Shown in pieces: positions 9,304 to 40,394 of a stretch of DNA of 46,671 nucleotides (position 1 is its first letter; every line of letters starts with the position of its first letter). Under the pieces are notes generated by a model. That model saw only the letters and a program-made list of their open reading frames with translations, had not been told where the DNA came from and made no database searches. Origin of the DNA: a virus; UHGV virus genome UHGV-0040636. One strand, given 5' to 3'. Position numbers and translations under genes: made by a program.

Positions 9304-9461
9304 CATCAGGAGAAGCATTTCAGAAGTGGTTTCAGCTATTTAATGCTGAACTCGAGAAGTTGGGAATGAACAAGATTGATGCGCAAAGTGCTGCTGTCGC
9401 ATGGAATGCAGCTAATTCATGGCGCGACGGTGACTTATTTGATGCTGAGGATGAAAAATGA
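9300..9461 (+). CDS. hypothetical protein (53 aa)
   Basis: ATGA overlaps at both ends. Confidence 0.4.
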   Translation: MTSGEAFQKWFQLFNAELEKLGMNKIDAQSAAVAWNAANSWRDGDLFDAEDEK

Positions 9462-10111
9462 AACTTATCGACCTGTTAGTTCAAGAATTGCCTAAGCGTG
9501 GCGGGTGGCCTGAGGGCGCTGAAATTGCCGTACAGGATGCCGACTCTCAGATTTGCTTCAGCTCTCACGGTGATGTATATGCAAACAAAAGCCAAACCGA
9601 CTGGTATGGCGGTGATTGGGGCGACGGAGACTGGAGTAACCCATTCATTGACACTATTGCTGATGACAGGCATGAGTGTATCGTAACTCGCGACCAATAC
9701 GAATCCGCACTCGCAGCATCGCAAAAGCCAGCATGGAACGGAGAAGGTCTGCCTCCGGTTGGTGCAAAAGTAGAATTCTTTATTAATCCAAAGTTTGGAT
9801 ACCGCAATAACTGGATTCCTGATGCTGGCACTGAAATGGAAGTGGTGGCACACAAAACAACAACGGACGGAAACGATGTGGCTGTTTGCTACTGGGATGA
9901 GGGTGGTGCTGGTCGGTCATGGTGCTTCGTACCTGAAAGCCTAAAGCCATTACGCACAGAAGCGGAAAGGAAGCGAGATGCTGCGGTTGAGGCGATTGAC
10001 CGGTTTATGCCTGAATGCGTCCCAGACACGCCAAATAAGTTTTACCATGCAAAGAAAATCTACGATGCCATTGCAGCAGGCAAAATTCCCGGAGTGAAAC
10101 TGGAGGATTAA
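9458..10111 (+). CDS. hypothetical protein (217 aa), W/G/D-rich
   Basis: WYGGDWGDGDWSNPF motif. Last gene of the unit before the terminator at 10189..10215. Confidence 0.5.
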   Translation: MKLIDLLVQELPKRGGWPEGAEIAVQDADSQICFSSHGDVYANKSQTDWYGGDWGDGDWSNPFIDTIADDRHECIVTRDQYESALAASQKPAWNGEGLPPVGAKVEFFINPKFGYRNNWIPDAGTEMEVVAHKTTTDGNDVAVCYWDEGGAGRSWCFVPESLKPLRTEAERKRDAAVEAIDRFMPECVPDTPNKFYHAKKIYDAIAAGKIPGVKLED

Positions 10112-10188: not shown

Positions 10189-10215
10189 AAGCCCTCACTT
10201 AGAGGGCTTTTTGTT
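10189..10215. terminator. bidirectional rho-independent terminator
   Basis: GCCCTC-ACTTA-GAGGGC followed by TTTTTGTT. Overlaps the last codons of the head morphogenesis gene. Confidence 0.65.
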
Positions 10216-11151
10216 GGCTAATTGCCATGCCTCACGCTGTTTATCAAGTCGCTCCTGTGATGACTCAAGAATGACTGGCTTACCATCCATTAATAATGCT
10301 GGACTCTGAGAGCAGTGACAATTCCTGCGGTTCGCCACTTCGCTATAAAACGTGTCAATCTCCTCTGGCGTGTAAAACCGTCCGTGTCTCGCCGCGTGCG
10401 TCTGGCGAGTCGTGCTCATTAATGCTGATTGCCACAGCATCACCGTCTCAATGCCTAACTCTTCGCGCGCCTCAATGACCTCCCGCCTGTTTGCCTGACG
10501 CAGCGTTCCGGTGATTTCTGTCTGCGCCAACTGCTTCGCGTAACTATGTGACACGTCAACGCGCTTAACGATGTCAGACTCAACATCGCGAGGATTAGCA
10601 CCACGGGCAATACCTTCCATAATGACAGACGCCATTTGCTGCCGGGAATAATCACTCAATCCGCGCCAGTCTGAATATCCTTGTGTGTACGCCAGCTGGA
10701 GTCGATTCAGGTAAGGCTCACTGTAGAGTATCGCGGCAATCGGCCTCTGTTCGGCATAAACAGGAGACAGGCTTGATAGTTCTGAGTTAGCCTTCTGCGT
10801 TCCGGCCTGATAAGCATCACCGATGAACACGTTAGCCCACATCCTGCCGTGACCGAAATCATCACCTTCAAGCAGAATCTCGTCAATCAGTGCCTGTAAC
10901 TCATCCATGAATGTAGCGGCGCGCGCACTACTGAAATCGTAGAAATACAGACCGCTTGATTCTGCGTTAGCCTGACTGTTTGGAATAGTGCGAAACAACT
11001 CAAGCGAACGAGTCCTGAACTGTTTGTATTTGCGCGTTATCACCTTGTCCATCTTCGATAGGCGAGTCGCAGCGCCTAACGGGTCTGTCAGGCTATGCGA
11101 TATGCGCGGCTGTGGAAGTCTTGCATTAAACCGGAGTATCTTCATTTTCAT
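10195..11151 (-). CDS. head morphogenesis protein (Mu F / SPP1 gp7-like minor head protein)
   Basis: Lies directly downstream of the portal, as expected for this family, and is about the right size. The start is ambiguous: in-frame ATGs occur at 11184, 11151, 11145 and 11052, all inside or next to the portal 3' end. Confidence 0.55.
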
Positions 11152-12538
11152 CTTCCGGCGGCGTGTCTTCACGATAACTTTCATCAAGTTCAATCGGCTC
11201 CATGCCAACCATGCCGCGCGCTTCATCGACGGTCAGCAACGCAGATTGACCAGCATCAAAGAAAGACTTGTTCGCAGTGGCGAGTTTAGCCAGCAACTCC
11301 GCCTTATCCAGCTCTGATGGTGCCAGCAAGTCGTCCCACTTAACCTTGTAGCCATTTTCCGGGGCTTTATCGACAATGCCGAACTGAATCATGCGCTCAA
11401 CGAACATTGAAATGACATAATCAACCCATGTTTCGCGTCGTTGCTTGGCAGTCATCGCCTCCTGCATCTTGTCTTCATCGCTCGCAAGTCGTCCGGTTTG
11501 CTGACCAAAAATTACAGTGAAAGGAAGTGCCATAGATGCAGCGAACTGGTTGGCAGCCACTTCCCACGTGGGCTTCGGGTCCGCTGGAGTAACAGCAAGC
11601 ACCTTAGCATCCGCGCCCATCGTGAACATGGCGGCATCAATCCCGGAGTTCAGTGCCTCAATGTTCTCATTCATGATGTCGGTTAGCTCTTCGATATCGA
11701 CACCCATTGACTGCGCAAGGCTTGCTGGCGTTACGTTATCCTTCGTGTAGTTTACCGCCAGTTGACGACTGGCATTCTTCAGGAACCCTTCCGCTGAACT
11801 ACCGGAAACCTTAGCCATGTCGATAAGGCTATTGTAACCAGCGCGCAGCATTGGAATGCCACTGAACATGCTGCCGTCAAAACTTCCCTCAGCCAGAATG
11901 ATGATGCGGTCAGGATGAATCTGCACAGAACGCTCAGGCTTGCCGTTACTGTCGAAATCTTCCACAGCGCTTTCCTGATACTCGTACATCTCAGGCATTC
12001 CGTAGTCTTCGCTGGTTTCGTCGTTATTCCACGCGCTTACTCGTAGTTGCTCTTCCCATACAGGAATAAATCGAACAATGGATTTATCTTTAATGCGGCG
12101 TGTTTTGGTGATGTCTACCGGTTCGCTCCATTGCTTGCCGTCACGGATTTGCAGGATAACAGCGGAATAGCGGTTGATGGCGTTGCGCTTGTCGGCCTCT
12201 TTGATGAACGGGTATGCGCGCTTCATCATGCCGTTGATGGATAACTCCCACGGTGTTGAGTTCTTGTCGTCCTCACCATCTTCAACTACTTCTGGGTATT
12301 TCTGCCAGCATTTATTAATAATGCGGTTAATACCAGCGGCGGCAGCTGGATGTCGCTCATAGGCATAGCGGAACATCTCAGCAGTGATTTCCTGCGGGTA
12401 GCCCAGCTCCTTCCACATGAACTCACGCTTCTGGTCCAGATTCTTCCCGCCAGCGCAAAGCCGTTGCTGCTGAATTGCCCGGTTATTGTTCGCCACGCGG
12501 TCGCGTATATAGGCGTTTAGTGCATCAATTTTGGACAT
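11126..12538 (-). CDS. portal protein (DUF1073-type)
   Basis: 470 aa with an acidic C-terminus. Position between the terminase region and the head morphogenesis gene. Family assignment is from memory of DUF1073 portals. Confidence 0.65.
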
Positions 12539-12586
12539 ATGTCACCAATAAAAAATCCCATCACGTTGGATGGGATTATAGCATGC

Positions 12587-12838
12587 TCACTTGTTGCGAT
12601 TTCGGTTTCTGTAGGCCGGATAGAATTTTGACAGAGGACACACCCAGAATTTCCACAGCATTTCTTCGTAGCTCGGTAGCGCCTCATGAAATCGCTTTCC
12701 AGAGGTATATCCATCAGGGTCTTCTTCATAGAAGAACTTTATAAACCCAATTCTCGCGTCAGCAACTGCGTTGTTCCTAACAAGCATATAAGCAATGAAC
12801 ACCATAACGATAAGACCAAAAATCATAACTGCCATCAT
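12587..12838 (-). CDS. small membrane protein (84 aa)
   Basis: ATGATG at 12838 with GAGGTGA RBS. One TM helix MMAVMIFGLIVMVFIAYMLV. Last gene of the accessory operon, directly upstream of the portal. Confidence 0.45.
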   Translation of the reverse strand: MMAVMIFGLIVMVFIAYMLVRNNAVADARIGFIKFFYEEDPDGYTSGKRFHEALPSYEEMLWKFWVCPLSKFYPAYRNRNRNK

Positions 12839-13029
12839 TTCACCTCGCTTACAACGCCAGACTTCATCCACTGATGAAACGCGTAACACTCAATTCTGTC
12901 ACCACTTACAACTTGATGGCATTTTGCATACAACTTAGCTCTATTGCTGCGCAACCCATGATTCGTCCATACATCTTCGACGCGCCTCCTGGCTGCAATA
13001 GAATACTCGTGAACCTCTTTTCTTGTCAT
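12835..13029 (-). CDS. hypothetical protein (64 aa)
   Basis: ATGA coupling downstream. GGTGGAG RBS. Confidence 0.4.
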   Translation of the reverse strand: MTRKEVHEYSIAARRRVEDVWTNHGLRSNRAKLYAKCHQVVSGDRIECYAFHQWMKSGVVSEVK

Positions 13030-13217
13030 TACTCCACCTTTTCGAATTTATCAATAATAACTTCACGCCCGTTACTTTCGTATTTTTCTACCGTGACTGA
13101 TTCAAAAAACCAGTCAAATGCTTCTTGAGGGCTAGAGGCAGCGGCAATTGCGCATACCTTAGTAACAACACTGCCACCATTAAGCACTTCAGCATGAATA
13201 AAATAAACGCTCATCAC
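13029..13217 (-). CDS. hypothetical protein (62 aa)
   Basis: Coupled ORF in the accessory operon. Confidence 0.4.
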   Translation of the reverse strand: MMSVYFIHAEVLNGGSVVTKVCAIAAASSPQEAFDWFFESVTVEKYESNGREVIIDKFEKVE

Positions 13218-13241
13218 TCAATCTCCCCACCATTAATGTCA

Positions 13242-13523
13242 TCACCGGCAAATCTTGACCACATAGTCAATCTTGTTTGCGTTGAAATAGACGTCTTTAA
13301 ATGCAGCCTCTACACTTTGATAAGTGCCGTTATTTCTGCGAACGCCCAACTTCTTGATAATAACCATTGATTCACCAGTCTCTGGCACAGCAATCCAATT
13401 GCTACCATCAATTTGCACATCACAGCCAAATACCAAGCGGTGACGGGCTTTACGATGAACATACAATCCACCAATGCGCTTTGGTATAATCTGACCTTTT
13501 TTAAATATCTCACTACTCATCAC
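13242..13523 (-). CDS. hypothetical protein (93 aa)
   Basis: ORF in the accessory operon. Basic N-terminus. Confidence 0.4.
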   Translation of the reverse strand: MMSSEIFKKGQIIPKRIGGLYVHRKARHRLVFGCDVQIDGSNWIAVPETGESMVIIKKLGVRRNNGTYQSVEAAFKDVYFNANKIDYVVKICR

Positions 13524-13524
13524 A

Positions 13525-13731
13525 TCACCCTCTCAAAAAATCATTCTTGCAGCAGATTCCTTTATATCCGCGCTTCTCTTGCAGGTTAACGAAAACATCA
13601 TCCAGAACGCGCAGCAGAAAATCCTCATCAATATCATACCGACGGCAAATCACCTCATCAGGCACACCAGCCCGTGCTAGTGAATAAACCTGTTCTTTTT
13701 CCTCATGTGTGAATCCTGCATAGCTGCGCAT
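13525..13731 (-). CDS. hypothetical HTH-like small protein (68 aa)
   Basis: EEKEQVYSLARAGVPDEVICRRYDID resembles a helix-turn-helix. First gene downstream of a sigma70-like promoter TTGACC-N17-TAGTAT (13762..13790, minus). Confidence 0.4.
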   Translation of the reverse strand: MRSYAGFTHEEKEQVYSLARAGVPDEVICRRYDIDEDFLLRVLDDVFVNLQEKRGYKGICCKNDFLRG

Positions 13732-13750
13732 AGTGATATCTCCGATAAAC

Positions 13751-13858
13751 CTGATGTAGATATACTATGCGCTCGGTGTAGATTGGTCAAGTGTGGTGAT
13801 GCGTATTTATCAACAACAATAATGAATGTTGACGTGGATTCGTTGTTGATGTAGATTG
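13751..13858 (+). promoter_or_regulatory. four tandem copies of the recurrent element upstream of the 13904 moron, overlapping a leftward sigma70-like promoter
   Basis: CTGATGTAGATAT (13751..13763), CGGTGTAGATTGG (13775..13787), TTGACGTGGATTC (13829..13841), TTGATGTAGATTG (13846..13858). TTGACG(13829)-N17-TAGATT(13852). The reverse strand reads TTGACC-N17-TAGTAT for the leftward operon. Confidence 0.55.
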
Positions 13859-13903
13859 CAATCATTGATGCAGCAATGGTGCTGCTGAAAAAAAGAGGGC
13901 TGG

Positions 13904-14488
13904 ATGATGGGATGCGATATTCATTTATACAAAGAGAAAATGATTGATGGGAAATGGGTTTCCGCTGACACATGGGTTAAGGAAGATGACTGGGATGGCT
14001 CAGAATACTTTGAGGTGCCTTGGAGCGAAAGATTCACTGATCGCAACTACAATCTCTTTGGTCTTTTGTGTGGCGGGGTTAGGTCTGAGCATCCTTACTC
14101 ATTCACCGAGCGTGGAATACCGTTTGATGTATGCACAGAGATTGCAGAAAATATTAATCGCTGGGGTTGTGATGGCCATTCTCATAGCTATCTTTATCTG
14201 CATGAGTTGAAATGCATGTTGGAATTTCTTGAAACTGTCACGGTGAATGTTTCAGGAATGAAAGATAAAGACCAACTGGAAGAGCTGCGTAAGTCAATCG
14301 CAAGCGGCAACCCTGACTGGAACCTATTATGGCCATACTGTGGATGGGCAAGCAGTGATAAATACGAAGAGTTCGACATTGATGTTCCAGCAAATGTAAT
14401 GCTTGGAGATGGCCTGAAAAAAATCATCTCTGGATTTGATGGCATTGATGGCGAAAATCATCGAATCGTGTTCTGGTTCGATAACTAA
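13904..14488 (+). CDS. stand-alone moron protein of unknown function (194 aa), Trp/Cys/His-rich
   Basis: Own promoter elements (x4), GAGGG RBS, own terminator. Opposite strand to the flanking structural genes. Motifs GCDIHLY, WGCDGHSHSYLYLHEL, WPYCGW; no family recognised. Confidence 0.6.
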   Translation: MMGCDIHLYKEKMIDGKWVSADTWVKEDDWDGSEYFEVPWSERFTDRNYNLFGLLCGGVRSEHPYSFTERGIPFDVCTEIAENINRWGCDGHSHSYLYLHELKCMLEFLETVTVNVSGMKDKDQLEELRKSIASGNPDWNLLWPYCGWASSDKYEEFDIDVPANVMLGDGLKKIISGFDGIDGENHRIVFWFDN

Positions 14489-14494
14489 AAGATA

Positions 14495-14520
14495 AAGCCC
14501 TCCAATGAGGGCTTTTCTTA
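14495..14520. terminator. bidirectional rho-independent terminator
   Basis: AAGCCCTC-CAAT-GAGGGCTT with T-rich flanks on both strands. Ends both the plus-strand moron and the leftward TerL transcript. Confidence 0.65.
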
Positions 14521-15942
14521 TCTCCTGCGACGGATTAGCATTCCGCTACCGCGCTGAACGATGTGGTCATTGAGTGCATAACGAACCGCATCCCAGAAGT
14601 GGTTGAATGCATCAACAATATCAGTCAGTACATTCCCTGTCAGCTTATCGACTTTGTAGCTGTACATCGCCGCTTCATTCTGCACTTCCTTGCATCGTTC
14701 GTGAATAATGATGCTGTCGCAGCCACGAAGCCACGTTACGCCATCCTCAACACTACCGGGCCATTTCGTGCATGGATGAATGTCAAATCCGGAGCGCTTG
14801 ATGTGGCTGATAGTTTCAGGGCGAGCGCAGTCTGCATACCATCGCGCACGCTTAGCCATCGGGAATGATTGCTCCATCGCCGCTGGCGTATCGGTAATCT
14901 CAAGTCCAACCTTACCATACTCGCGATAAATATAAATGTTGCGTCGCCCGCCCGGTAATTCTTCTATATAAACCTCAACCATTGCGGTTGGATCGGTGGA
15001 GAATCCGAAGTCCATCCCGAAATATGGGCCATGCCATTCAGGTTTGACTTCAAAGTTATCAATGCGCCACTTGCCACCAAATACCTGTTCGTCGCTGCGC
15101 TTGTTAAATTTCCCTTCCCATATCCACATGTAGCGGTCGAAGTCGACGCGCTTCATTTGCTCCATAGCGGATGGCAACGGCGTATCCCAGAACCACGGGT
15201 TATCTGAATAGTTACATTCGATAATCAGTATTTCATCATTTTCGAATATGCCGTCAACCATCTGTGAGTGATAGGGAGCAATCCAGTTTTTCCATGTTGG
15301 GTCTGTTTCCTTGTTTGGGTTAAATGAGCACCACAGCTCGGAATTGGCAGCGCGGATGGTAGGCACAAGAATATCCCAGCTTGTCTGGCTGACGTTCTCT
15401 GCTTCCTCTACCCAGCCAACAGTAATGCCAGCAAAACCCTTAACCGTAGTCTGGTTGCGATACAGCCCTTTGAAGCGGAATTTAGCTTTGGTCTTCTTGT
15501 GCGTTATTTCGTTGTTGATAACGCGAAACTCTGCCGATTCACCCTTGCGCGCTATTTCGTCGCACAATTCCTGATAGCTTGAATCCTCAATGGATTGCTG
15601 AATCTCACGAAAACAGGCAAAGCGGTCAGGTCGAAACCTTGCTCGCTCAGTAAGAATAGTGATAATCGTTCTTGTCTTCCCTGACCCACGGCCACCATAG
15701 ACAAACTTAAATCGTTTGGGGTAAAGCAGGCGCTCCAGCTTTGCCGGGATCAGGTGGTCTGCGTGGGTGGTTGCATTGGTTACGTCATCAACGCCAGTAG
15801 CGGTCATCCTTAACCGCTTAATGACGTTCTTCTGCATGTCGCAGATGCCGAAGATTGCAGACTCTGCCACATCTGTCATCGCATCATCAATCTGCGCTTC
15901 CAGCTTTTCTATTGCCAGTGCAGATAGGCGTTTACGAGCCAT
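14518..15942 (-). CDS. terminase large subunit
   Basis: 474 aa. Walker A YGGRGSGKT near the N-terminus, acidic nuclease-type C-terminal half. Sits between TerS and the portal region. Confidence 0.8.
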   Translation of the reverse strand: MARKRLSALAIEKLEAQIDDAMTDVAESAIFGICDMQKNVIKRLRMTATGVDDVTNATTHADHLIPAKLERLLYPKRFKFVYGGRGSGKTRTIITILTERARFRPDRFACFREIQQSIEDSSYQELCDEIARKGESAEFRVINNEITHKKTKAKFRFKGLYRNQTTVKGFAGITVGWVEEAENVSQTSWDILVPTIRAANSELWCSFNPNKETDPTWKNWIAPYHSQMVDGIFENDEILIIECNYSDNPWFWDTPLPSAMEQMKRVDFDRYMWIWEGKFNKRSDEQVFGGKWRIDNFEVKPEWHGPYFGMDFGFSTDPTAMVEVYIEELPGGRRNIYIYREYGKVGLEITDTPAAMEQSFPMAKRARWYADCARPETISHIKRSGFDIHPCTKWPGSVEDGVTWLRGCDSIIIHERCKEVQNEAAMYSYKVDKLTGNVLTDIVDAFNHFWDAVRYALNDHIVQRGSGMLIRRRR

Positions 15943-22075: not shown

Positions 22076-22492
22076 ATGAGCAAAACACATGAACTTAAAA
22101 TTTTACCTGAGCACTTCTGGCCTGTAGTCACCGGACACAAGAAGGCGGAACTAAGAAAGAATGACCGTGATTTTAGGGTTGGAGACACGATTATTCTTTA
22201 CGAGTGGAATGGAGACTACACAGGAGAGAGAACGGAGCGAACAATAGTTCACATTGCTGATGTAGGCGTTTATCTTCCCGGTTATGTCCTTCTTTCCCTT
22301 AATGAGATTGCTAACTGGAAAGATGCGCGTCTTTTCGACCCTAAAGATGGACAGGAGGTTGTTATTATTGACTCTGATCGCGTCAAGGTTACTGCCAAGT
22401 ATGATGACTCAGGAATATACTGGTGCAATCACACGGGTAAGTCTCTGCGAAATGTAACCTTCTGGACTGAAGCACCAGAGTTCAAGGAATAA
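22076..22492 (+). CDS. DUF3850 (ASCH/PUA-like) domain protein
   Basis: HELKILPEHFWPVVTGHKKAELRKNDRDFRVGD matches the HELKxxPEYF...GxKTFEIRKNDRDFxVGD signature recalled for DUF3850. Confidence 0.6.
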   Translation: MSKTHELKILPEHFWPVVTGHKKAELRKNDRDFRVGDTIILYEWNGDYTGERTERTIVHIADVGVYLPGYVLLSLNEIANWKDARLFDPKDGQEVVIIDSDRVKVTAKYDDSGIYWCNHTGKSLRNVTFWTEAPEFKE

Positions 22493-37107: not shown

Positions 37108-37137
37108 TTGACACCTGCTAGGTGGTGATGTAGATTC
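37108..37137 (+). promoter_or_regulatory. sigma70-like promoter TTGACA-N17-TAGATT containing the recurrent element
   Basis: TTGACA 37108..37113, TAGATT 37131..37136. GTGATGTAGATTC at 37125..37137. Drives the plus-strand moron embedded in the tail module. Confidence 0.6.
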
Positions 37138-37171: not shown

Positions 37172-37366
37172 ATGGATGTTGTTATTTTGTTGCTTTTTGC
37201 TGGATTGGTTATATTTGTTTATCTTCTCCCATCATTTGTGGCATTGCAAAGAAAGCACGCAAATACGACCGCAATCTGTGTACTGAATATTCTTGTCGGA
37301 TGGAGTTTTATTGGGTGGGTTGCAGCACTTGTATGGGCATTAGTTAACAGTGGCGACAAGAAATGA
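37172..37366 (+). CDS. superinfection immunity protein (Imm-like small membrane protein)
   Basis: LLPSFVALQRKHANTTAICVLNILVGWSFIGWVAALVWAL matches the ARKH.N..AIF.LNLLLGWTGIGWI.AL.WAL signature of the Imm_superinfect family as recalled. Two TM helices. Confidence 0.6.
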   Translation: MDVVILLLFAGLVIFVYLLPSFVALQRKHANTTAICVLNILVGWSFIGWVAALVWALVNSGDKK

Positions 37367-37506
37367 ACGAACAGACAAAAGCGGACCTGATTTTCTACAC
37401 TGAGCTGTATGTTGATGCAGGTTACGACTACGAAGAAGCTGAACGAATGGCGAAAGACTTACTCCGCGTGATTGGTGTGATTTTTGATGAGGATAAGGTG
37501 ATATGA
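37363..37506 (+). CDS. hypothetical small acidic protein (47 aa)
   Basis: ATGA coupling on both sides. Below the ORF-track cutoff. Confidence 0.35.
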   Translation: MNEQTKADLIFYTELYVDAGYDYEEAERMAKDLLRVIGVIFDEDKVI

Positions 37507-37859
37507 AAAATTATGAAGATATGAGTGATTCACAAATAGCGCAAAAGGTTTTCTTTTTTGTGAGTAGCAATCTTTGCCCAAACGGAGGGTTAGCTCACAT
37601 CAGTTCAGATGGATTCTTCTTTTTTGATGACAAAAATATTAAGAGGAAGTTTGACCCATGCAATAATCCAGAAGATGCTGAGCCTATTATTATTGAAAAC
37701 AGAATTGGCACTATTCCAGCACCAGATAATGGATTGTGGAAAGCTGCGCACAGAAAGATTGGCAATGATGATACGCCATACTATTTTACTCAAGACAAAA
37801 ACCCACTACGCGCTGCCATGATTGTATTTCTAAAAATGAATGAGGATAAGGTGATATGA
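37503..37859 (+). CDS. DUF2591 (lambdoid NinX-like) protein
   Basis: C-terminal NPLRAAMIVFLKMNE and the central CNNPEDAEPIIIENRI match the NinX/DUF2591 signature (NPLRAAMICFL) as recalled. Confidence 0.55.
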   Translation: MKNYEDMSDSQIAQKVFFFVSSNLCPNGGLAHISSDGFFFFDDKNIKRKFDPCNNPEDAEPIIIENRIGTIPAPDNGLWKAAHRKIGNDDTPYYFTQDKNPLRAAMIVFLKMNEDKVI

Positions 37860-38854: not shown

Positions 38855-38884
38855 TTGACAGTGATTATTTTGTGGTGTAGATTG
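38855..38884 (+). promoter_or_regulatory. sigma70-like promoter TTGACA-N17-TAGATT facing a non-coding stretch
   Basis: TTGACA 38855..38860, TAGATT 38878..38883. TGGTGTAGATTG copy at 38873..38884. Confidence 0.55.
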
Positions 38885-39902: not shown

Positions 39903-40394
39903 ATGATTTCAGAGCGGGATTACATAGCAATCGCGTCAAGAGTTAAATACGACCCGATTACCGGATTGTTCATCTGGGCTGTAAGTTGCGGGAAAATATC
40001 AAAAGGTGATATTGCAAATTATCACAACGACGCAGGATACATAACACTTGGGAAGAAAAGATTAAGGGCGCACCGAGTGGCTTGGTTTATCCATTATGGA
40101 TATGTCCCTGAGCATGAAATTGATCACATAAACAATATTCGTGATGATAATAGAATTTCAAATCTGAGGGAGGCCAGTGACTGCGAGAACGCAAGGAACA
40201 CAAAGATATCTAAATCAAACACGTCTGGATATAAAGGAGTTCATTTTTGCAAGTACACGGGGAAATGGAGAGCCACGGTAAAGATGCATGGGAAAAGCTA
40301 TCATCTTGGTAGGTTTTCAGACAAAGAAGCCGCCCATAAAGCCTATTGCAAAAAAGTAGATGAACTGTTTTTGGAGTTCGCAAACCACGGCTAA
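39903..40394 (+). CDS. HNH homing endonuclease with C-terminal AP2 domain
   Basis: YITLGKKRLRAHRVAWFIHYGYVPEHEIDHINNIRDDNRISNLR is an HNH_3-type core (H...N...N). SGYKGVHFCKYTGKWRATVKMHGKSYHLGRFSDKEAAHKAY is a typical AP2 domain. Lies on the opposite strand to the flanking structural genes. Confidence 0.75.
   Translation: MISERDYIAIASRVKYDPITGLFIWAVSCGKISKGDIANYHNDAGYITLGKKRLRAHRVAWFIHYGYVPEHEIDHINNIRDDNRISNLREASDCENARNTKISKSNTSGYKGVHFCKYTGKWRATVKMHGKSYHLGRFSDKEAAHKAYCKKVDELFLEFANHG

What the first reader, a model, noticed from the sequence alone, without database searches (positions are those of the whole stretch)
12587..14520. Accessory island inserted between the large terminase and portal genes, with a stand-alone 194-aa moron of unknown function
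TerL and portal are normally adjacent. Here they are separated by ~2 kb, and a bidirectional terminator (14495..14520) ends TerL before the portal. The island has two parts. The first is a leftward five-gene operon of 62-93-aa proteins, including an HTH-like protein and a membrane protein, with its own sigma70-like promoter (TTGACC-N17-TAGTAT). The portal appears to be co-transcribed with it. The second is a rightward gene 13904..14488 with four tandem promoter-element copies, a strong RBS and its own terminator. The 194-aa product is Trp/Cys/His-rich (GCDIHLY, WGCDGHSHSYLYLHEL, WPYCGW), suggestive of a metal site, and matches no family I recognise. Independently transcribed morons in structural modules often encode defence, anti-defence or host-modifying functions.
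Basis: partly seen in the sequence, partly recalled or inferred. Interest (0 to 1): 0.72.

Follow-up and report, generated by a model that had tools for sequence, protein, structure and literature searches.

The report
Swappable accessory-gene slot between terminase and portal
The gap between the DNA-packaging (terminase) and portal genes of this Skate-like phage is a lineage-wide slot for optional genes, here carrying a 193-residue acidic protein from a very large, uncharacterised, almost phage-only family with no recognisable fold; the layout is ordinary and only the protein is of interest.

Summary
TerL (14518..15942, -) and portal (11126..12538, -) are 1,979 bp apart. The gap holds five coupled leftward small genes and one rightward gene with a promoter-like site and a bidirectional terminator.

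The interpretation needs four corrections.
1. All nine relatives examined have a gap (937-2,290 bp).
2. The first leftward gene (68 aa, three predicted helices) is core: 9/9 relatives at 90-99% identity, above TerL or portal. The other four genes are patchy.
3. A conserved terminator hairpin overlapped by a conserved TGnTATAAT element lies just upstream of the portal, which argues against simple co-transcription.
4. The rightward unit is a textbook moron slot. Promoter and terminator are conserved in 8/10 genomes, and the cargo is none, 50 aa, 51+70 aa, or this family as two alleles (93% and 33% identity).

In other phages the family lies in early operons, once directly after N. I infer an early-made cytoplasmic enzyme or binder used for host takeover or counter-defence. 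Function is unproven.

The parts
14518..15942 (-). Large terminase subunit (TerL), right border of the gap
   Evidence: Pfam Terminase_3 E 5.8e-35 and Terminase_3C E 5.7e-11. PHROG terminase large subunit.
14494..15515 (.). COORDINATE NOTE: the true feature is 14494..14515 and the end value entered here is a typing slip. Bidirectional intrinsic terminator shared by TerL (-) and the 193-aa gene (+).
   Evidence: Nine-pair stem AAAGCCCTC/GAGGGCTTT with T-runs on both strands. RNA fold z = -4.06 (+) and -4.12 (-). The same hairpin is conserved in all 8 cargo-carrying genomes and absent from DS8 and IME207, which lack the cassette.
13907..14488 (+). Moron cargo: 193-aa acidic protein (net charge -18). 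Member of PHROG 10141 and of a very large uncharacterised phage family with conserved ends MGCDIH... and ...RIVFWFDN.
   Evidence: PHROG 10141 E 1e-57. 264 homologues in the first search; 4,763 clusters at 50% identity. No Pfam, NCBIfam or PADLOC hit. AF2 pLDDT 93.4. No fold match. Acidic across the family.
13829..13857 (+). Promoter-like site of the moron (TTGACG-N17-TAGATT), one of four near-identical GTTGAC-N16-TGATGTAGATT sites in the genome
   Evidence: Conserved in 8/10 genomes whatever the cargo. Four genome-wide copies against 0.58 expected from 200 simple (mononucleotide) shuffles, maximum 3. A sister copy precedes an Imm_superinfect gene.
13762..13790 (-). Promoter-like site of the leftward small-gene operon (TTGACC-N17-TAGTAT), flanked by two TGTAGAT repeats
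   Evidence: Both hexamers are invariant in all 10 genomes, including DS8 and IME207, where it lies within the 76-bp spacer between TerL and the 68-aa gene. Repeats.
13525..13731 (-). Core 68-aa gene, possibly a helix-turn-helix regulator; first gene of the leftward operon
   Evidence: Present in 9/9 relatives at 90-99% identity. Restricted to this lineage: 16 clusters, no Pfam. AF2 pLDDT 82 with three helices, 9-20, 25-31 and 36-53. Retained in all listed genome-reduced seszw mutants.
13242..13523 (-). 93-aa accessory gene (PHROG 29107, unknown function)
   Evidence: Present in 3/9 relatives.
13029..13217 (-). 62-aa accessory gene (PHROG 26739, unknown function)
   Evidence: Present in 6/9 relatives at 43-87% identity.
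12835..13029 (-). 64-aa accessory gene (PHROG 17303, unknown function)
   Evidence: Present in 3/9 relatives. One weak sub-threshold Pfam hit only.
12587..12835 (-). 82-aa protein with an N-terminal transmembrane-like helix (PHROG 25285, unknown function); last gene of the operon
   Evidence: The PHROG match covers residues 19-100 of the 100-aa maximal ORF. Sequence shown. Present in 6/9 relatives.
12554..12588 (-). Terminator hairpin (12577..12554) overlapped at its 5' side by a TGCTATAAT extended -10 element, directly upstream of the portal ATG
   Evidence: fold -15 kcal/mol. All 10 genomes keep TGnTATAAT followed by hairpin and U-run; the stem changes on both arms together (CCCATC/GATGGG, CCCTC/GAGGG, CCCC/GGGG). 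Annotated as a terminator in the Skate record.
11126..12538 (-). Portal protein, left border of the gap
   Evidence: Pfam Phage_portal_3 E 1.4e-20. PHROG 146 E 2e-107.

Best explanation
The TerL-portal gap is this lineage's standing accessory-gene platform. The lineage is the Skate / Vi II-E1 / Sf11 group of small siphoviruses.

Shown by sequence comparison:
- A nearly invariant ~150-bp divergent promoter region and a core 68-aa three-helix protein anchor the platform.
- To the left runs a translationally coupled operon. Its later genes (93, 62, 64 and 82 aa) come and go between relatives.
- That operon ends at a conserved terminator. The 5' arm of the terminator overlaps a conserved TGnTATAAT element in front of the portal gene.
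- To the right lies a promoter-cargo-terminator slot, a textbook moron. Its flanks are conserved and its cargo is exchanged. Here the cargo is a 193-aa protein.

Inferred:
- Upstream transcripts stop at the portal-proximal hairpin. Portal transcripts start inside the hairpin and escape it.
- The 193-aa protein is made early by host RNA polymerase. Its promoter belongs to a four-member class of near-consensus sigma70-type sites, one of which drives a superinfection-immunity gene. In temperate phages its homologues sit in the immediate-early (pL-type) operon.
- It acts in the cytoplasm. The most likely form is a small enzyme whose active or metal site is built from the conserved N-terminal C-D-x-H and central D-G-H-x-H motifs, with conserved Arg, Tyr and Glu residues. 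An acidic binding inhibitor is less likely.
- Its purpose would be host takeover or counter-defence.
- The 68-aa protein probably regulates the two promoters through the TGTAGAT repeats.
For: Architecture:
- ORFs and family matches.
- Presence/absence table across nine relatives, and gap sizes of 937-2,290 bp.
- Promoter region alignment: the - strand promoter hexamers are invariant in 10/10 genomes, and the + strand promoter is conserved in 8/10 whatever the cargo.
- DS8 and IME207 have only 76 bp between TerL and the 68-aa gene, with no cassette.
- Terminator conserved in all eight cargo carriers and stable on both strands.
- Portal-proximal TGnTATAAT plus hairpin in 10/10 genomes, with both-arm changes in the stem. 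The Skate record annotates both terminators.

Cargo exchange:
- Four cargo states.
- Two alleles of the same family, 93% and 33% identical, in the same slot.
- TerL and portal allele types partition differently among relatives, so recombination joints fall inside the gap.
- Island G+C is 42.6%, against 46.2% for the genome and 49-51% for TerL and portal.

Early timing and role:
- Four copies of GTTGAC-N16-TGATGTAGATT against 0.58 expected from simple (mononucleotide) shuffles.
- The sister copy precedes an Imm_superinfect gene, E 1.5e-18.
- Homologues lie directly after N in a Yersinia prophage.
- Homologues open or sit in early operons next to CI/Cro in Serratia, Bordetella and Burkholderia prophages, alongside RecT/ERF, Lar, ParB-like and methylase genes.
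- The same holds for early regions of Paenibacillus phage Vegas and the N4-like phage EcP1.
- The family is almost absent from plasmids: 2 of 72,556.

Enzyme-like conservation:
- About 60% identity between enterobacterial and Burkholderia homologues.
- Near-invariant C3, D4, H6, E10, R46, Y48, R59, D89, H91, S94, E100, R186 and D192 across a family of about 4,760 clusters.
- Confident model, pLDDT 93.4.
Against: - There are no transcript data. Promoter-like hits in the region are not more frequent than chance, so timing and transcript ends are inferred from conservation only.
- No homologue of the 193-aa protein has a known function, name or Pfam domain.
- No fold match exists.
- The family is acidic throughout. 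That fits a DNA-mimic or binder as well as it fits an enzyme.
- The sister promoter drives a superinfection-exclusion gene. That points towards excluding rival phages as much as towards counter-defence.
- The 68-aa protein has no HTH family hit.
- Its retention in reduced seszw genomes could reflect a shortage of CRISPR spacers in short genes rather than essentiality.
Confidence: 0.6

Rival explanations
1. The 193-aa protein excludes rival phages. It would be a superinfection-exclusion or phage-encoded defence function that protects the infected cell from competitors, not a counter-defence against the host.
For: - The same promoter class drives an Imm_superinfect gene elsewhere in the genome.
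- Distribution among close relatives is patchy, and two very divergent alleles occupy one slot, as expected in an arms race.
- In Serratia and Bordetella prophages the gene lies next to the immunity region, where prophage exclusion genes often sit.
Against: - No PADLOC defence model matches.
- The protein has no membrane segment, unlike Imm/Sie-type proteins.
- In the Yersinia prophage it lies downstream of N in the lytic early operon, not in a lysogenically expressed position.
- It also occurs in strictly lytic N4-like and T4-like cyanophages.
Confidence: 0.2
2. The 193-aa protein is a non-catalytic acidic decoy (a DNA or nucleotide mimic, or a sponge). It would block a host DNA-binding enzyme such as a restriction enzyme or RecBCD, or sequester a signalling nucleotide.
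For: - Net charge is -18. All 104 family sequences examined carry a negative charge, with medians of -13 to -15.
- It lies in early operons alongside Lar, methylases and recombination genes.
- Conserved Trp, Tyr, Phe and Arg residues could form a ligand pocket.
Against: - There is no structural similarity to Ocr, ArdA or any other solved protein.
- The near-invariant Cys/Asp/His/Glu pattern and ~60% identity across distant hosts look more like a catalytic or metal site than the loosely conserved charge pattern of known mimics.
Confidence: 0.15
3. The island genes, including the 193-aa protein, are packaging or head-assembly accessory factors that belong functionally with TerL and portal.
For: - They lie between TerL and portal.
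- The 68-aa gene is conserved in every relative and was kept in all listed reduced seszw genomes. For that one gene, a packaging or assembly role cannot be excluded.
Against: - The 193-aa gene is absent from 7/9 relatives. It is on the opposite strand with its own promoter and terminator.
- In other phages it lies in early, non-structural regions.
- The 93-, 62-, 64- and 82-aa genes are each missing from several relatives that have near-identical portals.
- The only portal-like Foldseek rows have TM-scores below 0.15 and E-values of 0.16 or worse, which is noise.
Confidence: 0.04
4. The 193-aa gene is a free-standing homing endonuclease of a new type. The variability of the gap would then come from endonuclease-driven gene conversion.
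For: - Gaps between essential genes are typical homing sites.
- Relatives carry HNH endonucleases in this very gap or next to TerL.
- The protein has conserved His, Asp and Arg residues.
Against: - The protein is strongly acidic, unlike DNA-binding endonucleases.
- There is no HNH, GIY-YIG, LAGLIDADG or PD-(D/E)XK signal in Pfam or in the fold searches.
- In most phages it lies inside early operons, not between conserved essential genes.
Confidence: 0.04

Closest known systems
Morons of lambdoid phages HK97/HK022 (promoter-gene-terminator units inserted between late genes; Hendrix/Juhala concept, from my own knowledge)
   Same: - A single gene sits between genes that are adjacent in some relatives (DS8, IME207).
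- It has its own sigma70-like promoter and its own intrinsic terminator.
- G+C is lower than in the flanking genes.
- Distribution among close relatives is patchy.
   Different: - The slot itself (promoter and terminator) is conserved, and the cargo is swapped within it.
- The unit is antisense to the late operon.
- It shares a divergent promoter hub with a core gene.
- The phage group appears to be lytic, so expression from a prophage is not the point.
The accessory stretch downstream of N in the pL operon of lambda and P22 (ral, sieB, gene 17 and others; from my own knowledge)
   Same: Homologues of the 193-aa protein occupy this kind of position: directly after N in a Yersinia prophage, and near the start of early-left operons in Serratia, Bordetella and Burkholderia prophages.
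   Different: - No sequence or fold relation to Ral, SieB or any named product was found.
- In the window the gene has been moved out of any early operon into the packaging/head module.
Anti-CRISPR operons with a conserved Aca helix-turn-helix regulator (acr-aca loci; from my own knowledge)
   Same: The leftward operon pairs a highly conserved small helical, possibly DNA-binding protein with a changing set of very small genes. It sits behind a strong-looking promoter that carries short repeats.
   Different: - The conserved gene comes first, not last.
- It has no HTH family hit.
- No Acr/Aca library was available to test membership.
- The repeats are direct, not inverted.
T4 Imm-type superinfection immunity protein (Pfam PF14373)
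   Same: A gene of this family at 37172..37366 is driven by a promoter nearly identical to the one before the 193-aa gene. The two are probably co-regulated accessory cassettes.
   Different: The 193-aa protein itself is soluble, acidic and unrelated in sequence.

Membership tests
Moron (promoter-gene-terminator cassette in a phage late region) | Sits between genes that are adjacent in related phages | tested here: met
   DS8 and IME207 have only 76 bp between TerL and the 68-aa gene, and lack the + promoter, cargo and terminator.
Moron (promoter-gene-terminator cassette in a phage late region) | Own promoter | tested here: inconclusive
   TTGACG-N17-TAGATT lies at 13829..13857. It is conserved in 8/10 genomes and belongs to a four-member promoter class. 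There are no transcript data, and the scan count in the region equals chance.
Moron (promoter-gene-terminator cassette in a phage late region) | Own intrinsic terminator | tested here: met
   The hairpin at 14494..14515 with T-runs folds at z = -4.1 on both strands and is conserved in all cargo carriers. Function in vivo was not tested.
Moron (promoter-gene-terminator cassette in a phage late region) | Base composition differs from neighbours | tested here: met
   The gene has 42.8% G+C, against 49.1% for TerL, 50.9% for portal and 46.2% for the genome.
PHROG 10141 (phage protein family of unknown function) | Significant match to the family profile over most of its length | tested here: met
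   E 1e-57, covering residues 1-168 of the protein and positions 1-161 of the 212-position profile. All 54 diverse relatives also match.
Known metal-dependent hydrolases (calcineurin-like metallophosphoesterase, HIT, JAMM, LAS peptidases and others) | Family profile match or shared fold | tested here: not met
Known metal-dependent hydrolases (calcineurin-like metallophosphoesterase, HIT, JAMM, LAS peptidases and others) | Metal ligands clustered in space | not testable with these tools
Only the secondary structure was returned: D4/H6 lie at the start of strand 1 and D89/H91/H93 at the start of strand 5.
DNA-mimic anti-restriction proteins (Ocr, ArdA) | Strong net negative charge | tested here: met
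   Net charge -18. All 104 relatives examined are negative.
DNA-mimic anti-restriction proteins (Ocr, ArdA) | Sequence or fold relation to a known mimic | tested here: not met
Known anti-phage defence proteins (PADLOC models) | Match to a defence-system protein model | tested here: not met
   No hit at E up to 1 for any of the six island proteins.
Helix-turn-helix transcription regulators (for the 68-aa protein) | HTH family profile match | tested here: not met
   No Pfam or NCBIfam hit, and none precomputed for its 16 homologue clusters.
Helix-turn-helix transcription regulators (for the 68-aa protein) | Three-helix bundle compatible with HTH | tested here: inconclusive
   The AF2 model (pLDDT 82) has helices 9-20, 25-31 and 36-53.
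acr-aca anti-CRISPR operon | Homology of any gene to a known Acr or Aca family | not tested
   No Acr/Aca library was among the tools. Only the layout resemblance was seen.

The most novel reading that the evidence does not exclude
The 193-aa protein represents a new-fold, metal-dependent enzyme family that thousands of unrelated phages (siphoviruses, N4-like podoviruses, cyanomyoviruses, and temperate phages of Proteobacteria and Firmicutes) make early in infection. Its role would be to disable a widespread host function or immune signal. On this reading, the two very divergent alleles in the same slot in sister phages reflect an arms race. In addition, the 68-aa core protein would be a lineage-specific regulator that runs both accessory arrays from one hub.
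Probability: 0.25. Interest if true: 0.75.

Novelty: new member of a known kind. Interest (0 to 1): 0.42.

Why it matters
The layout is a clear, well-bounded example of how small lytic siphoviruses carry optional genes inside their packaging/head module. It has a conserved promoter hub, a conserved terminator, swappable cargo, and a terminator-promoter overlap that insulates the portal gene from the accessory operon. This helps annotation and phage engineering, because the slot is a natural place to insert payloads.

The cargo matters more. It belongs to one of the larger phage protein families that still has no name, no Pfam entry and no structural relative. The family nonetheless has enzyme-like invariant residues and a consistent early-operon position. 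Finding its target would assign a function to several thousand protein clusters.

Tried and rejected
- Pfam, NCBIfam and PADLOC scans of all six island proteins gave nothing significant.
- Pfam on 54 diverse relatives gave nothing.
- PHROGs gave only families of unknown function.
- Profile searches against PDB sequences with both alignments returned only chance-level rows.
- Foldseek against PDB gave no real match (best E 0.16). Its top rows are portal proteins, which could mislead, but their TM-scores are below 0.15.
- BFVD returned only uncharacterised viral proteins.
- The AlphaFold-database library was not available.
- Cluster names for ten distant relatives were all 'hypothetical' or absent.
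- A search for domain fusions found none. All top hits in both large searches are 77-271 aa with no Pfam domain.
- Full-text literature searches for 'phrog_10141' and 'MGCDIH' found no papers.
- A search on genus names produced the BASEL and CiPGr papers, but nothing on this gap or this protein.
- I first took the CiPGr paper's 'genes 3-10' deletion in seszw for this island. The seszw record shows the island at genes 56-59 (62-65 in the mutant records' numbering), so I dropped that reading.
- Rfam found nothing in 12000..15000.
- There is no DNA-level homologue in 5,426 E. coli genomes, and only 2 of 72,556 plasmids carry a homologue.
- I considered metallophosphoesterase, HIT, JAMM, 2H-phosphoesterase, ADP-ribosyltransferase and LAS-peptidase readings of the His/Asp motifs. 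All were rejected for lack of any profile or fold support.
Full report
**What is there**

The window appears to be a whole ~46.7-kb genome of a small siphovirus. It is related at about 85-90% nucleotide identity to Shigella phages DS8 and Sf11, Escherichia phage swi2, and Salmonella phages SeSz-2, Skate, STGO-35-1, IME207 and Vi II-E1.

The borders of the gap are clear. TerL (14518..15942) and portal (11126..12538) are both on the - strand and match their Pfam and PHROG families. A Mu-F-like head morphogenesis gene follows the portal. A 148-aa gene, probably the small terminase, precedes TerL.

TerL and portal are 1,979 bp apart. The gap holds five abutting or overlapping - strand ORFs:
- 68 aa at 13525..13731
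- 93 aa at 13242..13523
- 62 aa at 13029..13217
- 64 aa at 12835..13029
- 82 aa at 12587..12835

It also holds one + strand ORF ending at 14488. Each of the six matches a PHROG of unknown function. None matches Pfam, NCBIfam or PADLOC.

Three details needed correction:
- The + gene starts at the second ATG (13907, 193 aa), because homologues begin MGCDIH.
- The last leftward gene is 82 aa, not 100 aa.
- The 'four tandem promoter elements' are two 14-nt tandem copies plus three TGTAGAT copies.

**The gap is a lineage feature, not an insertion**

I compared nine relatives by tblastn. All have a TerL-portal gap, ranging from 937 to 2,290 bp.

| Gene | Relatives carrying it | Identity to the window |
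|---|---|---|
| 68 aa | 9/9 | 90-99% |
| 82 aa | 6/9 | 65-95% |
| 62 aa | 6/9 | 43-87% |
| 64 aa | 3/9 | 90-95% |
| 93 aa | 3/9 | 90-91% |
| 193 aa | 2/9 | 93% (Sf11), 33% (STGO-35-1) |
| TerL | 9/9 | 60-98% |
| Portal | 9/9 | 67-97% |

The 68-aa gene is better conserved than either TerL or portal, so it is core. The rest of the gap is mosaic.

TerL and portal each come in two allele types, and the two partitions differ between relatives. IME207, for example, has a portal at 97% identity and a TerL at 61%. Recombination joints must therefore fall inside the gap. Island G+C is 42.6%, against 46.2% for the genome and 49-51% for the flanking genes.

**The regulatory anatomy**

I aligned the DNA between the 68-aa gene and the + strand cargo in ten genomes.
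- The - strand promoter-like site (TTGACC-N17-TAGTAT, 13790..13762) is conserved in all ten, with both hexamers invariant.
- The + strand site (TTGACG-N17-TAGATT, 13829..13857) is conserved in the eight genomes that carry any + strand cargo.
- DS8 and IME207 have just 76 bp between the TerL stop and the 68-aa start. They keep the - promoter but lack the + promoter, the cargo and the terminator.
- The terminator AAGCCCTC-loop-GAGGGCTTT is conserved in all eight carriers. In the window it folds well on both strands, z about -4.1.

The slot holds four kinds of cargo:
- nothing, in DS8 and IME207
- a 50-aa ORF, in Skate, Seszw_1 and Vi II-E1
- 51-aa plus 70-aa ORFs, in swi2 and SeSz-2
- the 193-aa family, in the window, Sf11 and STGO-35-1

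The STGO-35-1 protein is only 33% identical but keeps both MGCDIH and VFFFDN. This is a textbook moron. The one added point is that the slot is conserved and the cargo is exchanged within it.

**The portal is probably not simply co-transcribed**

Directly upstream of the portal ATG, all ten genomes carry TGnTATAAT followed at once by a hairpin and a U-run. In the window the hairpin is at 12577..12554 and folds at -15 kcal/mol.

The TG and TATAAT are constant while the middle base varies (C, A or T). The stem changes on both arms together: CCCATC/GATGGG, CCCTC/GAGGG, CCCC/GGGG, and a different stem in Seszw_1. The Skate record annotates this hairpin as a terminator.

The last three bases of the TATAAT are part of the 5' arm. 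A transcript that starts the usual ~7 nt downstream would therefore lack that arm and would not terminate.

My reading, by inference and not shown, is that the hairpin ends the accessory operon and the overlapping extended -10 element restarts transcription for the portal.

**Evidence on dispensability from the literature**

A CRISPR-based genome-reduction study targeted hypothetical genes of the Skatevirus seszw, leaving out known essential and structural genes. It produced mutants that lost up to ~22% of the genome (PMC9825161).

In seszw the gap holds a 50-aa + strand cargo, the 68-aa homologue, a 63-aa gene and an HNH endonuclease. In the 58 seszw-derived records listed, down to 35,993 bp, the HNH gene is often gone. 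The three small genes are always kept.

This suggests these genes, or the signals among them, are needed. It is not proof, because the paper notes that short genes had fewer spacers. The window's own cargo was not tested there.

**The 193-aa protein**

It is conserved at about 55-69% identity in prophages and phage contigs of Serratia, Yersinia, Bordetella, Burkholderia and Caballeronia. More distant relatives occur in Paenibacillus larvae phages, an N4-like Enterobacter phage, cyanomyoviruses, and Erwinia and Caulobacter phages.

A profile search of 1.84 billion representatives found 4,763 clusters at E up to 0.001, and 1,747 at E up to 1e-10.

Family members share these features:
- Nearly all start at residue 1 with MGCDIH and end with RIVFWFDN.
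- Residues 1-105 and the last strand form the conserved core.
- The middle (about 105-175) is a variable insert.
- Near-invariant residues across the wide family are C3, D4, H6, E10, W17, W23, R46, Y48, F51, R59, G70, P72, D89, H91, S94, E100, R186 and D192.

No member examined has a Pfam domain, a fused domain or a name. The family is acidic throughout: the window protein has a net charge of -18, and all 104 sequences examined are negative.

The AlphaFold model is confident (pLDDT 93.4, pTM 0.87), yet it matches nothing solved:
- Foldseek best E 0.16 with TM below 0.2
- Only unnamed viral proteins in BFVD

By the tests available, it looks like a new fold. The family is nearly absent from plasmids (2 of 72,556).

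**Context and timing**

In a Yersinia lambdoid prophage the homologue lies directly after the N gene, upstream of cIII, ERF, SSB and Lar. In Serratia, Bordetella and Burkholderia prophages it opens or sits near the start of the early operon beside CI/Cro. ParB-like, HNH, Lar, RecT and methylase genes lie downstream. In Paenibacillus phage Vegas it follows Cro and antirepressor genes. In the N4-like phage EcP1 it lies among small genes upstream of the replication genes.

In the window, its promoter is one of four near-identical GTTGAC-N16-(T/G)G(A/G)TGTAGATT sites, against 0.58 expected from 200 simple (mononucleotide) shuffles. Three of the four also share a similar leader sequence.

One sister copy (37108, +) precedes an Imm_superinfect gene (E 1.5e-18) and a NinX-like gene that lie antisense within the tail module. 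Another (19455, -) heads a run of small genes.

From this I infer that the protein is made by host RNA polymerase, probably early, as part of a set of co-regulated accessory cassettes.

**Mechanism, with confidence**

- Platform and slot architecture: about 0.85.
- The 193-aa protein is an early, cytoplasmic accessory factor rather than a packaging or head component: about 0.8.
- It is an enzyme with a metal or acid-base site formed by C-D-x-H and D-G-H-x-H: about 0.5.
- It is an acidic binder or mimic: about 0.15-0.2.
- Its role is counter-defence or host takeover: about 0.4. Its role is exclusion of rival phages: about 0.2.
- The 68-aa protein is a regulator acting on the TGTAGAT repeats: about 0.35. 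The support is three predicted helices, extreme conservation together with its promoter DNA, and three of the ten genome-wide TGTAGAT copies lying within about 100 bp. At least one of those copies is simply the -10 region of the + promoter.

**Verdict**

The island as such is ordinary: a variable accessory region with a classic moron, of a kind long known in tailed phages.

What remains worth attention is the cargo. It belongs to a very large, almost phage-only, unnamed family with enzyme-like invariant residues, no structural relative and a consistent early-operon position. The compact terminator/promoter overlap in front of the portal is also of note.

Noticed in passing
window 13829-13857 (+), 37108-37136 (+), 38855-38883 (+), 19455-19427 (-): Four near-identical promoter-like sites, GTTGAC-N16-(T/G)G(A/G)TGTAGATT, against 0.58 expected from simple shuffles. 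Three of the four also share a similar leader sequence. They look like one co-regulated promoter class for genes set against or apart from the late operon.
   Followed up: partly
window 37172-37366 (+), 37363-37506 (+), 37503-37859 (+): A second antisense accessory cluster lies inside the tail module. It holds an Imm_superinfect protein (PF14373, E 1.5e-18), a 47-aa ORF and a P22 NinX-like protein (E 2e-11), all behind one of the promoter copies.
   Followed up: partly
window 39903-40394 (+): An HNH_3 + AP2 domain protein, probably a free-standing homing endonuclease, on the + strand among - strand structural genes.
   Followed up: no
window 9458-10111 (+): A 217-aa + strand ORF with no Pfam hit lies opposite the head genes, just beyond the Mu-F-like gene. 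The relatives annotate a + strand hypothetical gene at the same position: Sf11 (noted there as gp61), SeSz-2 (gp34) and swi2 (gp46).
   Followed up: no
window 11126-12538 and 14518-15942, compared with L001-L015: TerL and portal each occur as two allele types among relatives (~60% against ~97% identity to the window). The two partitions do not coincide. Recombination joints therefore lie in the gap, where the 68-aa gene and promoter DNA stay 90-99% identical.
   Followed up: partly
L015 and L016 (Salmonella phage Seszw_1 and its genome-reduced mutants): In the 58 listed seszw-derived records (genomes down to 36 kb), the HNH gene in the TerL-portal gap is often deleted. The 50-aa cargo, the 68-aa gene and a 63-aa gene are always kept.
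   Followed up: partly
window 10195-11226 (-): The maximal ORF of the Mu-F-like head morphogenesis gene overlaps the end of the portal gene by about 100 nt. The PHROG match starts at residue 26, and relatives annotate a shorter gene, so the true start is probably downstream.
   Followed up: no
window 22076-22492 (+): A DUF3850/ASCH-domain protein (E 8e-20) lies in the + strand replication-side block.
   Followed up: no
window 13870-13886 (+): A small hairpin (GCAGCA/UGCUGC) sits in the 5' leader of the 193-aa gene and is also present in Sf11 and STGO-35-1. Its folding energy is not better than that of shuffles (z = -0.67).
   Followed up: partly
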